This document shows positions 1 through 1,636 of a stretch of 1,636 nucleotides of DNA, one piece after another. The translations under genes were made by a program, and so were the position numbers. Below the pieces are notes generated by a model. It searched no databases, was not told where the DNA came from, and saw only the letters and a program-made list of their open reading frames with translations. The stretch comes from Naegleria gruberi (Eukaryota). Numbering within the stretch: the stretch's first letter is position 1; every line of letters starts with the position of its first letter. The DNA lies in assembly GCA_000004985.1 (NCBI GenBank), contig GG739362.1; one strand, given 5' to 3'.

Positions 1-1035
1 GACTTGATTCAAGAAATAAAGAATGTTGAATTTATTGACAGAATGCCAAAACCAGATTCAATATTTCTGGTTACTACTAATCAAAAGGATGATGAAGGAA
101 AACCAAGTATAATTTCTGACCTTGCTTTTGGCACACATCCATCCTCTTGGAAAACATTCGTACCACGAGTTGTCAAAGGTTACTCCTTTGGTACTCACAA
201 AACTTTAGAGTGTCGTGGTGTTTCCTATTGTACAACATGTAACAAAGGTGCTGAAGATGGTGAAGTTTACACTAAGAAATTCACCTTTTGTAGGAAGATG
301 GAGCCCATTACAGGCAAAGTGTGTAATACCAAGCTAGTGAAGTTGGGTGAGAAGTGTATGCATAGGGTAAGATGGTACAAAACAGCACCAGACGAAGGTG
401 GAAACATGATGAATCTGGTCATGTTTGAAAAGGCACATGCTCACAATACTGTTATTACAGGTAAATTCACCAAGAAGGCGGAACAACTAATTGAAGAACA
501 TGTGAAGAAGAACCCCAGAGTGAAAGCTTCACAATTAAAGAAAAGACGTTCTACAAATCTAGTTGCGAAAGATTGCTCTGCACTATTGAACAATGATGCG
601 GTAGCATCATTGGTAAGGAAGAAGAAGGATAAGCATTACGGGCAGAACAGGTTCAAGGATATGCCAGACCTTGCTAACGCCCTAACCGAGTCGTACCAAA
701 AAGAGCACAAAGATGATAAAAGAACCGTGCTTGGTACCATTACAAGGGAATTGGGGGTCTCAATTTATTTGAGAAAGTTTGGCAGTGTGAAAACATTTTT
801 GAAATGGTGGAAAGCAAGAATTGATATTCTAATCAATCCAAACGTGCGTGTAACTACTAATAACATCGCAGAATCGAACAATGCGCTGATTAGAATAGTG
901 ATAGAAGATGCTAATTTGTCAATTGAATTCAAAAACAGTTTTGAAGTTGATGTTTTAACCTTCGATTTGTTACTTTCTAAACAAGCGGGGTACTTCTTGG
1001 AGACTCAGCAACAAACAAGCGTTGTTAAACCGTAA
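1..1035 (+). CDS. 5'-partial ORF, probably the C-terminal part of a Mutator-like (MULE)/IS256-superfamily transposase-derived protein. It has a putative FAR1/WRKY-type zinc finger and a catalytic-E signature. The frame is open to the left window edge; the first in-frame ATG is at 43.
   Basis: There is an uninterrupted frame +1 of 345 codons with no stop from nt 1; the track lists it from the TTG at 4. Codon usage is yeast-like. A Cys/His pattern C96-x10-C107-x37-H145-x-H147 (nt 289-444) sits in a 'F.C...GkvC..klv....RWyk....f...HaHN' context that resembles the FAR1/WRKY-GCM1 zinc finger. The motif T-T-N-N-I-A-E-S-N-N-A-L-I-R (nt 853-894) fits the Mutator/IS256 consensus TxNxAESxNxxI[KR] around the catalytic glutamate. 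The ORF ends at TAA 1033-1035. Confidence 0.55.
   Translation, partial: DLIQEIKNVEFIDRMPKPDSIFLVTTNQKDDEGKPSIISDLAFGTHPSSWKTFVPRVVKGYSFGTHKTLECRGVSYCTTCNKGAEDGEVYTKKFTFCRKMEPITGKVCNTKLVKLGEKCMHRVRWYKTAPDEGGNMMNLVMFEKAHAHNTVITGKFTKKAEQLIEEHVKKNPRVKASQLKKRRSTNLVAKDCSALLNNDAVASLVRKKKDKHYGQNRFKDMPDLANALTESYQKEHKDDKRTVLGTITRELGVSIYLRKFGSVKTFLKWWKARIDILINPNVRVTTNNIAESNNALIRIVIEDANLSIEFKNSFEVDVLTFDLLLSKQAGYFLETQQQTSVVKP
289..444 (+). other. Putative FAR1/WRKY-GCM1-type C2H2-like zinc-finger DNA-binding module inside the frame +1 ORF
   Basis: Translation reads YTKKFTFC(96)RKMEPITGKVC(107)NTKLVKLGEKCMHRVRWYK...NLVMFEKAH(145)AH(147)N. It has a C-x10-C spacing followed by HxH, with a conserved-looking Trp/aromatic between the two ligand pairs. 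Confidence 0.35.
853..894 (+). other. Mutator/IS256-superfamily transposase signature around the putative catalytic glutamate (TTNNIAESNNALIR)
   Basis: The sequence act act aat aac atc gca gaa tcg aac aat gcg ctg att aga translates to TTNNIAESNNALIR. It is compared by eye to the TxNxAESxNxxI[KR] / 'TTNxIESxNxxIRR' motifs of MURA-like and IS256-like transposases. Confidence 0.4.
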
Positions 1036-1507
1036 AAAGTGGGCATACAACAATGACGGAGTGCCAAACTTAAACCAGGTGGATGAAGTTGGTGGTGAAA
1101 GTGTGGAAATTAATAATGATGAGGATTATTGTGAAAATAATAATGCTGTGGATGAGGATGAAGTGGATGATGAAGTGGATGATGAAGTAGATGAAGTAGA
1201 TGAAGAAGTGGATAATAATAGTGAGAATGATGATGAAGAGGAGGAAGGTGAGGAAGATGGGGATTATGTTGAAGAAGAGGAGGAAGAAAGAAGAAAGAAG
1301 AAAACAAAAGTTACTAAAAAGAAATGGAAGAATGTAACAAGAAGAAAGCAGGAGAAGAAAAATGAAGAAGAGGAAGGTGAAAGTAAAAATGAGAAGACAA
1401 AAATAAGTCATTTTAGAAGATGGAATGAAGATGTGAAGAGTTTAGGGAGTAAAAGAAAGAGGAATGTAGTAGATTATAAAAAGACTAATGGTGATGATAG
1501 TGAATAA
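1022..1507 (+). CDS. Frame +2 ORF with no ATG at all. It encodes an acidic (DEV)n/poly-Glu tract followed by a Lys/Arg-rich NLS-like tail. It is most likely the downstream, post-frameshift part of the preceding gene (a frameshift at the CCG-TAA-A stop would make effective coding start at 1034).
   Basis: Frame +2 is open from 959 to TGA 1505-1507. The translation contains no Met; the track's 'M' is a TTG. It overlaps the frame +1 ORF by 14 nt as listed, or 77 nt of mutually open frame. Composition is strongly biased: D/E 1151-1290, K/R 1289-1470. An AATAAA overlaps the stop and AT-rich 3' signals follow, which suggests a genuine gene 3' end. Confidence 0.45.
   Translation: MLNRKKWAYNNDGVPNLNQVDEVGGESVEINNDEDYCENNNAVDEDEVDDEVDDEVDEVDEEVDNNSENDDEEEEGEEDGDYVEEEEEERRKKKTKVTKKKWKNVTRRKQEKKNEEEEGESKNEKTKISHFRRWNEDVKSLGSKRKRNVVDYKKTNGDDSE
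1151..1213 (+). repeat. Imperfect in-frame tandem repeat (GAT GAR GTR)n, about 7 units of 9 nt. It encodes DEDEVDDEVDDEVDEVDEEVD.
   Basis: The unit is seen directly: gatgaggat gaagtggat gatgaagtggat gatgaagtagat gaagtagat gaagaagtggat. Confidence 0.65.
1225..1400 (+). repeat. Long polypurine (GAA/GAG/AAG-rich) low-complexity tract on the + strand. It encodes poly-Glu then a Lys/Arg-rich stretch, and includes a (GAA)n-like microsatellite at about 1266-1300.
   Basis: The + strand is almost purely purine across this span. The complementary pyrimidine strand produces the spurious F/L/I/P/H-rich minus-strand ORFs (1070-1411 and 1110-1307). Confidence 0.55.
1289..1330 (+). other. NLS-like basic cluster RRKKKTKVTKKKWK; a second basic patch KRKR lies near 1450-1470
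   Basis: This is the direct translation of frame +2. Clusters of at least 4 K/R in a row are typical of classical monopartite or bipartite nuclear localisation signals. Confidence 0.35.
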
Positions 1508-1600
1508 AGGGAAATATTATTTAATGGTTTCATCAGTTCTTGTTTAATACAACAAGAATAATAAAATGCTACAATTAAAGTATAAAAAATTTGTAAAAAT
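1503..1600 (+). promoter_or_regulatory. Putative yeast-type mRNA 3'-end formation region. AATAAA overlaps the TGA stop, followed by an A/T-rich tract with TATAAAAAA and AATAATAAAA elements.
   Basis: tgAATAAAg lies at 1503-1509, aataataaaa at about 1557-1566 and tataaaaaa at about 1581-1589. These match the efficiency/positioning-element style of budding-yeast 3' UTRs. This is a sequence-based guess only. Confidence 0.3.
1537..1558. other. Perfect 8-bp inverted repeat (ttcttgtt / aacaagaa) with a 6-nt loop (taatac). It is a potential stem-loop in the 3' UTR.
   Basis: Seen directly: 1537-1544 ttcttgtt, loop 1545-1550, and 1551-1558 aacaagaa is the exact reverse complement. Confidence 0.45.
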
Positions 1601-1636
1601 GCTAAAACTTCTCCAAGAATCGAACACGCGCTGTTG

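What the first reader, a model, noticed from the sequence alone, without database searches (positions are those of the whole stretch)
1034..1507. C-terminal extension is an intrinsically disordered acidic-then-basic module with NLS-like clusters
If the two frames are joined, the transposase-like body acquires an acidic patch of about 60 residues ((DEV)n, poly-E) followed by RRKKKTKVTKKKWK and KRKR basic clusters. Acidic tracts with NLSs are typical of chromatin- or nucleolus-associated proteins and histone-binding tails. For a DNA-acting transposase derivative this would provide nuclear import and possibly chromatin or histone interaction. Making such a tail conditional on frameshifting would be a neat way to regulate nuclear entry. 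The tail has no Cys/His or SWIM finger, which differs from plant MULE and FAR1 C-termini.
Basis: inference. Interest (0 to 1): 0.5.

Follow-up and report, generated by a model that had tools for sequence, protein, structure and literature searches.

The report
Charged tail of a broken transposase gene
The acidic-then-basic tail is real, and its first part is homologous to the original C-terminus of a very divergent Mutator-like transposase, but this copy has lost its catalytic core and carries a frame-breaking indel about 40 bases upstream of the stop codon, so it looks like an ordinary defective transposon copy and not a frameshift-regulated nuclear-import switch.

Summary
Frame +2 (992-1504) encodes 171 aa. 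A 69-aa block (1082-1288) has 41 D/E and no K/R. The next 72 aa have 27 K/R, including RRKKKTKVTKKKWK and KRKR. The tail has no Met, one Cys and one His, and no predicted globular fold. A 182-codon open frame was never reached in 5000 shuffles.

The one relative found (L001, a 2-kb metagenome contig) reads the equivalent junction in a single frame. Its ...TNNIAES...ENGYTTSCRL...EYVNDGIPD matches window frame +1 up to QAGY (993) and frame +2 from TSWRL (992). The frame break therefore lies at about 987-994 (GCGGGGTACT), not at the TAA at 1033. L001 has its own break elsewhere, in the opposite direction. No RNA structure accompanies either candidate site.

The window also lacks about 207 aa that in L001 carry both candidate catalytic Asp residues and the CxxH motif. 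It keeps the WRKY/FAR1-like zinc finger, the WW motif and the TNNIAES (Glu) motif.

The likeliest reading is an internally deleted, frame-broken (or mis-sequenced) copy of a highly divergent MULE/IS256-like transposon. The basic clusters are plausible NLSs, which is inferred. The acidic tract is an in-frame repeat expansion. Programmed frameshifting and histone binding are untested and unsupported.

The parts
1..993 (+). Frame +1 body, with its 5' end cut by the window. It is a zinc-finger plus C-terminal remnant of a MULE-like transposase ORF, and homology to L001 ends at QAGY (982-993).
   Evidence: The ORF is open from 1 to 1032. tblastn of the L001 fused protein hits window 100-780 (E 2e-19) and 784-993 (E 1e-12), both in frame +1.
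211..444 (+). Cys/His-rich putative DNA-binding region. It has a cluster C71-x5-C77-x2-C80...C97 followed by C108-x10-C119-x26-H146-x-H148, which is the WRKY-GCM1/FAR1-type spacing.
   Evidence: All of these Cys and His residues are conserved with P0002. The FAR1 Pfam model hits the equivalent part of P0002 only below threshold, at E 0.035-0.18.
778..786 (+). In-frame internal deletion junction (F260-G261-S262). About 207 aa present in L001 (fused aa 257-463, with D289, D365 and C403-x2-H406) are missing here.
802..882 (+). Retained C-terminal catalytic-domain motifs: KWW (802-810) and TTNNIAESNN (853-882), which holds the candidate DDE glutamate.
   Evidence: These align with L001 W471/W472 and T489-N497. 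hhalign places them on the IS256 invariant residues T337, N338, E341 and N344.
985..994 (+). The frame break, GCGGGGTACT. Homology to L001 passes from frame +1 to frame +2 here. This fits a 1-nt insertion in the GGGG run (987-990) or a 2-nt loss (TACACT to TACT).
   Evidence: The frame +1 HSP ends at 993 and the frame +2 HSP starts at 992. Junction models scored against L001 give 78 and 86 for a shift here and 70 for a shift at the TAA.
992..1081 (+). Conserved start of the frame +2 tail: TSWRL...NRKKWAYNNDGVPN. L001 has RRKRRKR where the window has NRKK.
   Evidence: tblastn with the last 50 aa of L001 gives window 992-1072 in frame +2 as the best of all six frames, at E 0.004. The frame +2 reading of 992-1039 scores 24 (reached by 76 of 5000 shuffles), and the frame +1 reading of 991-1032 scores 14 (reached by 1301 of 5000).
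1033..1035 (+). TAA stop of frame +1.
1082..1288 (+). Acidic low-complexity block of 69 aa with 41 D/E and 0 K/R. It is built from degenerate in-frame tandem repeats such as GATGAAGTGGAT, which encodes DEVD.
   Evidence: One search gives the composition. Searches give the repeats, with periods of 9, 12, 21, 27 and 33 and spacings that are all multiples of 3. predicts coil with pLDDT 44-60.
1289..1360 (+). Main basic cluster, RRKKKTKVTKKKWKNVTRRKQEKK. It fits the mono- and bipartite classical NLS patterns.
   Evidence: Pattern matches are and coordinates. The function is inferred and was not tested.
1451..1462 (+). Second basic cluster, KRKR, near the C-terminus.
1505..1507 (+). TAA stop of frame +2, which is the end of the ancestral ORF.
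1560..1565 (+). AATAAA hexamer 53 nt after the stop, a possible poly(A) signal. Such hexamers are common by chance in AT-rich DNA.

Best explanation
The window holds the 3' two-thirds of a defective copy of a very divergent Mutator-like (MULE/IS256-type) DNA transposon gene from an AT-rich genome. That genome is probably eukaryotic and uses the standard genetic code.

The ancestral gene was one continuous ORF, in this order:
1. an N-terminal WRKY/FAR1-like zinc finger;
2. a DDE catalytic core;
3. a short conserved segment (TSxRL...YxNDG[IV]P);
4. a non-globular tail.

In this copy the catalytic core (about 207 aa, holding both Asp residues and CxxH) has been deleted in frame at nt 780-784. A small indel at 987-994, in or next to a GGGG run, moves the tail into frame +2. 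That indel is either a real mutation or a homopolymer sequencing error.

The acidic tract is a product of in-frame slippage and expansion of GAT/GAA/GTN repeats. The basic clusters (RRKKKTKVTKKKWK, RRKQEKK, KRKR) are the likely nuclear localisation signals that a eukaryotic transposase needs.

What is shown: the composition, the openness of the frame, colinear homology across the frame break, the loss of the core, and the absence of a frameshift-stimulating structure. What is inferred: NLS function, the repeat-expansion origin, that the element is a transposon, and that the host is a eukaryote.
For: - Tail composition and coordinates.
- The open frame is beyond chance, with 0 of 5000 shuffles reaching it.
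- All repeat periods are multiples of 3.
- There is no fold in the AF2 model.
- The only relative found among 1.84 billion representative proteins is P0002, on contig L001.
- L001 carries TNNIAES...ENGYTTSCRL...EYVNDGIPD in one frame.
- tblastn shows window frame +1 up to 993 and then frame +2 from 992.
- The junction model at 987-994 scores 78-86 against 70 for a shift at the TAA.
- L001 has a different break, in the -1 direction, at about 802-805.
- The window lacks L001 aa 257-463, which hold D289, D365 and C403xxH406.
[quoted passage not shown] Muta1 has D214, D283, H307, W401 and E419 (paper PMC5225508).
- hhalign of the L001/window profile against 10 annotated IS256 transposases gives P 9e-4 and score 35.4, against a maximum of 23.4 in 50 column shuffles. 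It aligns QxCxxH..N and TN.IE..N colinearly.
- There is no RNA structure signal at either junction, with z of about 0, and no Rfam family.
- Frame +2 has no ATG, so the tail cannot be an independent gene.
Against: - Everything comparative rests on one distant relative (26-38% identity) whose contig ends just where the acidic tract would begin. Conservation of the acidic and basic parts is therefore unknown.
- The frame +2 homology upstream of the TAA is short: 31 aa at E 0.004, and 76 of 5000 shuffles match the 16-aa core.
- No Pfam, NCBIfam or PHROG model reaches threshold for either sequence.
- The strict Mutator signature is absent from L001, and hhalign probability is only 22%. Superfamily assignment is therefore suggestive, not proven.
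- Apart from one break, both reading frames are free of stops, and the large deletion is in frame. That could instead point to selection on a shortened protein.
- No TIRs, TSDs or additional copies could be examined.
Confidence: 0.68

Rival explanations
1. Programmed +1 ribosomal frameshifting joins the two frames, so the NLS-bearing tail is made only on a fraction of ribosomes. The shift could occur at the stop codon (CCG_TAA_A, 1030-1036, Euplotes-like). It could also occur at GCG_G.GG_T (985-991), which has the same P-site codon as the yeast Ty3 (GCG_A.GU_U) and OAZ1 (GCG_U.GA_C) sites.
For: - Exactly one +1 step is needed, and both frames are otherwise free of stops.
- Frame +2 has no ATG.
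- GCG is a documented non-slipping +1 P-site codon in yeast (PMC12661321).
- GGG is an infrequent Gly codon here (3 of 17 in the body) and GGT is the commonest (9 of 17).
Against: - The only relative reads straight through the equivalent position in one frame, and it has a break of the opposite sign at another place. The shift is therefore not conserved.
- Homology favours frame +2 already from 992, which argues against a shift at the TAA.
- GCG_G.GG_T is not one of the four heptamers listed for yeast in that paper.
- No structure stands out.
- The copy has lost its catalytic core, so there is little reason to expect a maintained recoding signal.
Confidence: 0.07
2. The gene is continuous in reality, and the extra G in the GGGG run is a sequencing or assembly error. 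It encodes a shortened protein that lacks the catalytic core but keeps the zinc finger, the conserved C-terminal segment and the charged tail. Such a protein could be maintained either as a repressor made by an internally deleted element or as a domesticated DNA-binding factor.
For: - The 207-aa deletion is in frame.
- Removing one G gives 501 consecutive sense codons.
- The DNA-binding region and the basic clusters are retained.
- The break sits in a homopolymer run.
Against: - No orthologue or paralogue with the same architecture exists in 5.8 billion and 1.84 billion protein sets, or in the viral, metagenome and genome contig collections. There is therefore no sign of conservation.
- In-frame deletion has a 1 in 3 prior by chance.
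- No reads are available to test for an error.
Confidence: 0.15
3. The acidic and basic part (1082-1504) is not coding at all. On this reading it is a purine-rich minisatellite in the 3' region of the element that happens to be open in one frame.
For: - The region is extremely purine-rich, with GC skew up to 0.97 and AT skew up to 0.6.
- It is made of tandem repeats.
- A 113-aa ORF also appears on the opposite strand.
- Homology to L001 can be followed only to about 1072.
- Some MULE-related groups carry minisatellites near one end (Rehavkus, PMC6446971).
Against: - A 182-codon open frame was never reached in 5000 dinucleotide shuffles, where the maximum was 139.
- All repeat periods are multiples of 3.
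- The frame is continuous with the conserved segment 992-1072.
- Synonymous codon choices match the body: GAA>GAG, GAT>GAC, AGA for Arg, GGT for Gly.
- The non-repetitive last 70 codons are also open.
Confidence: 0.07

Closest known systems
Eukaryotic Mutator-like element (MULE) transposases, such as Muta1, MURA and TvMULEs
   Same: - The domain order is the same: an N-terminal WRKY/FAR1-type zinc finger followed by a DDE domain.
[quoted passage not shown] Muta1 has D214, D283, H307, W401 and E419 (PMC5225508).
- The [ST]TN.IE..N glutamate motif is retained in the window at 853-882.
- Frame-breaking indels and internal deletions are usual in MULE copies. For Muta elements, frameshifts were manually corrected.
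   Different: - No Pfam MULE, Transposase_mut or FAR1 model reaches threshold.
- The strict Mutator signature fails in L001, with about 17 extra residues between D365 and QxCxxH.
- There is no C-terminal SWIM or CCHC finger. Instead there is a long acidic and basic low-complexity tail.
- The window copy lacks the two Asp residues altogether.
- TIRs and TSDs were not observable.
Bacterial IS256-family transposases
   Same: The profile-profile alignment is colinear over the CxxH-to-Glu segment. Eight of nine invariant IS256 residues there (Q252, C254, H257, N261, T337, N338, E341, N344) are matched in L001, and the last four are also matched in the window.
   Different: - hhalign probability is only 22% with P 9e-4.
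- The match does not extend to the two Asp motifs.
- IS256 has no zinc finger and no charged tail.
C-terminal NLS regions of eukaryotic transposases, such as the piggyBac bipartite NLS in its last 94 residues
   Same: Clusters of K/R near the C-terminus fit the mono- and bipartite patterns. For piggyBac, negatively charged residues near the NLS were also reported to matter (PMC2532691).
   Different: Nothing was tested for function here. piggyBac belongs to another superfamily, and its NLS overlaps a zinc finger, which this tail lacks.
Acidic and basic tails of nucleolar or chromatin proteins (Nop53, YL1)
   Same: The alternating acidic and basic low-complexity composition is similar.
   Different: The only hits are sub-threshold and compositional: Nop53 at 17.6 bits against a cut-off of 24.9, and YL1 at 14.5 against 29.2. 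There is no PDB relative; the best E-value is 0.43.
Programmed +1 frameshift sites of yeast Ty3/OAZ1 and of Euplotes genes
   Same: A +1 step is required. GCG precedes the break, as in Ty3 and OAZ1. A stop codon followed by A lies downstream, as in Euplotes sites.
   Different: - The heptamer differs from all listed sites.
- The shift is not conserved in the relative.
- Homology places the break before the stop.
- There is no stimulatory element.

Membership tests
Mutator/MULE-IS256 transposase superfamily | A significant match to the family HMMs (Pfam MULE PF10551, Transposase_mut PF00872) | tested here: not met
   Neither model appears for the window ORFs, L001 ORF2 or the isolated L001 core, even at E up to 10.
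Mutator/MULE-IS256 transposase superfamily | [quoted passage not shown] | tested here: inconclusive
   Candidate residues D289, D365, C403xxH406, W471 and E494 are present in relative L001, with spacing of 76 and 129 against 69 and 136 in Muta1. In the window only W269/W270 and the Glu in TTNNIAES remain, because both Asp residues and CxxH are deleted. The residue assignment rests on motif reading, not on structure.
Mutator/MULE-IS256 transposase superfamily | The 25-aa signature D-x3-G-[LIVMF]-x6-[STAV]-[LIVMFYW]-[PT]-x-[STAV]-x2-[QR]-x-C-x2-H (quoted in PMC2725143) | tested here: not met
   The regular expression finds no match in L001, and the region is deleted in the window. The same expression matches only 5 of 10 annotated IS256 transposases, so it discriminates weakly.
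Mutator/MULE-IS256 transposase superfamily | Profile-level homology to bona fide members | tested here: inconclusive
   hhalign of A2 against A3 (10 IS256 transposases) gives score 35.4, P 9e-4 and probability 22%. It covers the CxxH-to-Glu segment only. None of 50 column shuffles reached that score, and their maximum was 23.4.
Mutator/MULE-IS256 transposase superfamily | Long terminal inverted repeats and 8-11 bp target site duplications | not testable with these tools
   The window (1636 nt) and L001 (2016 nt) do not contain both element ends. No convincing terminal repeats were seen.
WRKY-GCM1/FAR1-type zinc finger | C-x(4-10)-C-x(22-26)-H-x-H on a beta-sheet unit, and a match to the FAR1 or WRKY models | tested here: inconclusive
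   The spacing is present: C108-x10-C119-x26-H146-x-H148 in the window and C-x8-C-x22-H-x-H in P0002. The FAR1 model reaches only E 0.035-0.18, below its cut-off. The AF2 model of the body was unusable, with mean pLDDT 34.6.
Programmed +1 ribosomal frameshift site | A known shift-prone heptamer at the frame junction | tested here: not met
   The junction reads GCG_G.GG_T. The yeast sites listed are CUU_A.GG_C, CUU_A.GU_U, GCG_A.GU_U and GCG_U.GA_C, so only the P-site codon is shared.
Programmed +1 ribosomal frameshift site | Conservation of the two-frame arrangement in relatives | tested here: not met
   L001 is in one frame across the equivalent site, and it breaks frame elsewhere in the -1 direction.
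Programmed +1 ribosomal frameshift site | A trans-frame protein product made at a measurable efficiency | not testable with these tools
   This needs reporter assays, ribosome profiling or mass spectrometry.
Classical importin-alpha dependent NLS | The sequence pattern K-K/R-x-K/R, or two basic clusters 10-12 residues apart | tested here: met
   Patterns are found at tail residues 100-123 and 154-157, which are nt 1289-1360 and 1451-1462.
Classical importin-alpha dependent NLS | Sufficiency and necessity for nuclear import | not testable with these tools
   This needs GFP-fusion localisation or importin binding experiments.

The most novel reading that the evidence does not exclude
The internally deleted copy is not junk. 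It would express, by a low-efficiency Ty3-like +1 shift at GCG_G.GG_T (985-991), a catalytically dead protein made of the zinc finger and the NLS-bearing charged tail. That protein would enter the nucleus and compete with the full-length transposase at the element ends, acting as a repressor produced by a deletion derivative. The frame +1-only product would lack the NLS. This would be a new recoding site in a previously undescribed, very divergent MULE-like lineage.
Probability: 0.04. Interest if true: 0.6.

Novelty: new member of a known kind. Interest (0 to 1): 0.2.

Why it matters
As it stands, this finding mainly shows that a frame change next to a stop codon should not be read as recoding before relatives are checked. 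Here a single distant homologue moves the break 40 nt upstream and shows that the copy is defective.

The modest positive result concerns the family. Only one relative was found among 1.84 billion representative proteins, and no Pfam model recognises the family, yet it has the motif order of Mutator/IS256 transposases. It may therefore mark an unsampled branch of that superfamily in an AT-rich, probably eukaryotic genome.

If other copies showed that the charged tail is conserved, it would be a testable case of a transposase C-terminal NLS joined to an acidic tract.

Tried and rejected
**Searches that found nothing**
- Pfam, PHROGs, NCBIfam and PDB sequence searches of both ORFs gave nothing above threshold.
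- Of the three word-indexed protein searches, the frame +1 ORF and alignment A2 returned nothing. Alignment A1 returned only P0002, which was itself part of the query.
- The exhaustive phmmer search gave two hits. P0001 is a repeat-protein artefact with 10 short stretches. P0002 is the only real one.
- The search for related loci in the viral, metagenome and genome contig collections gave no confirmed relative, with either the single protein or alignment A2.
- Exact look-ups of three possible gene-caller products of the window found nothing on record.
- blastn against phages gave no match. tblastn of L001 ORF2 against plasmids gave only E 0.5 noise.
- The profile search of PDB with A2 gave noise only.
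- The sample behind L001 (PRJEB11402, ERR1078381) could not be traced in the literature.

**Structure and RNA checks**
- The AlphaFold2 model of the frame +1 body, from a 2-sequence alignment, had mean pLDDT 34.6. It was too poor for a fold search, so none was run.
- ARAGORN found no tRNA, and Rfam gave only one sub-threshold chance-level match (RAGATH-9, E 0.44).
- RNA folds around both candidate shift sites had z-scores of about 0.

**Ideas considered and dropped**
- A spliceosomal intron bridging the frames. The best donor is GTAAAA at 1032, and its acceptor at 1077-1078 gives a 47-nt intron that lands in frame +3. A 13-nt GT...AG interval at 990-1002 would remove the conserved TSWR.
- Ciliate codes with TAA/TAG read as Gln. 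Reading through the TAA meets a TGA at 1054.
- My early guess that this was the Kluyveromyces lactis alpha3 or Kat1 domesticated transposase.
Full report
**1. What is in the window**

The 1636-nt window is AT-rich, with GC of 0.25-0.43.
- Frame +1 is open from the first base to a TAA at 1033-1035.
- Frame +2 is open from 959 to a TAA at 1505-1507.
- Frame +2 has no ATG at all, so it cannot be an independent gene.
- ARAGORN found no tRNA, and Rfam gave only one sub-threshold chance-level match.

**2.

Read in frame +2 from 992, the tail is 171 aa.
- A 69-aa block (1082-1288) has 41 D/E and no K/R. It includes DEVDDEVDDEVDEVDEEVD and EEEEEE.
- The remaining 72 aa have 27 K/R, including RRKKKTKVTKKKWK (1289-1330), RRKQEKK (1340-1360) and KRKR (1451-1462).
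- There is one Cys and one His, so no zinc finger.

The tail lies on the disordered side of the charge-hydropathy boundary, with H 0.288 against a boundary of 0.462. A single-sequence AlphaFold2 model has pTM 0.28. Its acidic part is coil at pLDDT 44-60, and its basic part is a single long helix with no tertiary contacts.

The open frame is not a by-product of purine richness alone. In 5000 dinucleotide shuffles of 959-1507 the longest open forward frame was 139 codons, against 182 observed. The tract consists of degenerate tandem repeats whose periods (9, 12, 21, 27, 33) and copy spacings are all multiples of three. Synonymous codon choices match those of the frame +1 body. The Pfam hits of the tail (Nop53, YL1) are below threshold and compositional. 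PDB sequences give nothing.

**3. Relatives**

The body is nearly an orphan.
- It has no family or structure hit.
- It has no hit among 5.8 billion clustered proteins.
- An exhaustive phmmer run over 1.84 billion representatives gave only two hits. One is a repeat artefact. The other, P0002 (184 aa), aligns over the Cys/His-rich region at 26% identity with pairwise E 2e-12.
- P0002 sits on one 2016-nt ENA metagenome contig, L001.
- No further relatives turned up in any contig collection, or in phages or plasmids.

**4. What L001 shows**

L001 has two overlapping ORFs in different frames. Joined at about nt 802-805, they give a 576-aa protein that is colinear with the window.

The tblastn result is decisive. 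L001 aa 42-256 match window nt 100-780 in frame +1 (E 2e-19), and aa 464-534 match nt 784-993 in frame +1 (E 1e-12). The last 50 aa then match nt 992-1072 in frame +2, the best hit of all six frames (E 0.004). In L001 the string TNNIAESMNNQLRR...KENGYTTSCRLNPVDYLEQRRKRRKRNEYVNDGIPD lies in one frame. In the window it is split into ...TTNNIAESNNALIR...SKQAGY (frame +1) and TSWRLSNKQALLNRKKWAYNNDGVPN (frame +2). Three conclusions follow.

(a) At least the start of the tail belongs to the same ancestral protein as the body.

(b) The frame break is at about 987-994 (GCGGGGTACT), not at the TAA at 1033.
- Conceptual joins at 987-994 score 78 or 86 against L001, and a join at the TAA scores 70.
- The frame +2 reading of 992-1039 scores 24, reached by 76 of 5000 shuffles. 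The frame +1 reading of the same DNA scores 14, reached by 1301 of 5000.
- This evidence is moderate because the segment is short.

(c) The window lacks L001 aa 257-463, an in-frame loss between nt 780 and 784.

L001's own frame break is at a different place and in the opposite (-1) direction, with no slippery heptamer. The two-frame arrangement is therefore not a conserved feature of the family.

**5. What the body is**

In L001 the part missing from the window contains NIDSAYD (D289), SVDFS (D365) and QGCHFH (C403-x2-H406). WW (471/472) and TNNIAES (E494) follow.
[quoted passage not shown] This resembles the experimentally defined Muta1 residues D214, D283, H307, W401 and E419 (PMC5225508).
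- The N-terminal C-x10-C-x26-H-x-H unit fits the WRKY/FAR1-type fingers usual in MULEs.
- I fetched ten annotated IS256-family transposases from plasmids and aligned them.
- hhalign against the L001/window profile gave score 35.4, P 9e-4 and probability 22%. It aligned QxCxxH..N and TN.IE..N colinearly. Fifty column-shuffled controls reached at most 23.4.

Against membership:
- No Pfam model reaches threshold. FAR1 gives E 0.035-0.18 and rve_3 gives E 0.17 at the Glu motif.
- The strict Mutator signature fails, although it also fails in 5 of 10 true IS256 proteins.
- The AF2 model of the body was too poor to use, with pLDDT 34.6.

I therefore call the family MULE/IS256-like by architecture. 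Formal membership remains open.

**6. How it most likely works**

The ancestral protein was a eukaryote-type transposase. Its C-terminus carried a conserved short segment and a non-globular charged tail.
- The basic clusters fit classical NLS patterns. L001 also has RRKRRKR next to the conserved NDGIP motif.
- C-terminal NLSs are documented in other transposases such as piggyBac (PMC2532691). NLS function here is inferred.
- The acidic tract is best explained as in-frame repeat expansion. Any role in histone binding or NLS masking is speculation.

In this copy the catalytic core is gone and the tail is out of frame. As written, the locus can give only a truncated frame +1 product without the tail. 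Internal deletions and frame-breaking indels are the normal fate of DNA transposon copies. For Muta elements such frameshifts were corrected by hand.

**7. Rivals**

- **Programmed +1 frameshifting** is not excluded. GCG is the P-site codon of the Ty3 and OAZ1 sites (PMC12661321), and GGG/GGT would be a plausible slow/fast codon pair. However, the heptamer is not a known one, the shift is not conserved, and there is no structure.
- **A sequencing error in the GGGG run, with a maintained shortened protein,** is possible and cannot be tested without reads.
- **A non-coding minisatellite** is unlikely, given the shuffle test and the triplet periodicity.

**8. Verdict**

The recoding and nuclear-entry-switch interpretation is not supported. 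The object is an ordinary defective copy, and the family it belongs to is unusually divergent and poorly sampled.

Noticed in passing
window 778-786: This copy has an in-frame internal deletion of about 207 aa relative to L001. The lost part (fused aa 257-463) holds both candidate catalytic Asp residues and the CxxH motif.
   Followed up: yes
L001 793-841 (break near 802-805): The only relative has its own frame break, from frame 2 to frame 1 (-1), after the zinc-finger region. It lies in an A-rich stretch with no X_XXY_YYZ heptamer, and the gene caller split the gene into two ORFs.
   Followed up: partly
L001 105-175: A direct repeat AAAAGTCGAGTC (105 and 157) and a 14-nt inverted repeat (129-142 / 156-169, 93% complementary) lie about 120-180 nt upstream of the ORF. 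They could be subterminal transposase-binding repeats.
   Followed up: no
window 1560-1607: An AATAAA hexamer lies at 1560, and the direct repeat AAAATGCTA[C/A]AA occurs at 1563 and 1596, in the 3' flank after the frame +2 stop.
   Followed up: no
window 1608-1636: GAATCGAACACGCGC at the window's end resembles the complement of a tRNA T-arm (GTTCGATTC). ARAGORN and Rfam report nothing, but any such gene would run off the window.
   Followed up: partly
window 211-300: An extra conserved Cys cluster (C71-x5-C77-x2-C80...C97) lies upstream of the C-x10-C-x26-H-x-H unit and is shared with P0002. It may be a second zinc site.
   Followed up: no
window 1070-1411, minus strand: A 113-aa ATG-started ORF runs opposite the acidic tract. 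It is hydrophobic and Phe/Ile/Leu-rich, which is what the complement of a purine-rich repeat gives. It is not on record as a called gene.
   Followed up: partly
window 985-991: The frame break coincides with GCG_G.GG_T. Its P-site codon GCG is the one used by the yeast Ty3 and OAZ1 +1 frameshift sites.
   Followed up: partly
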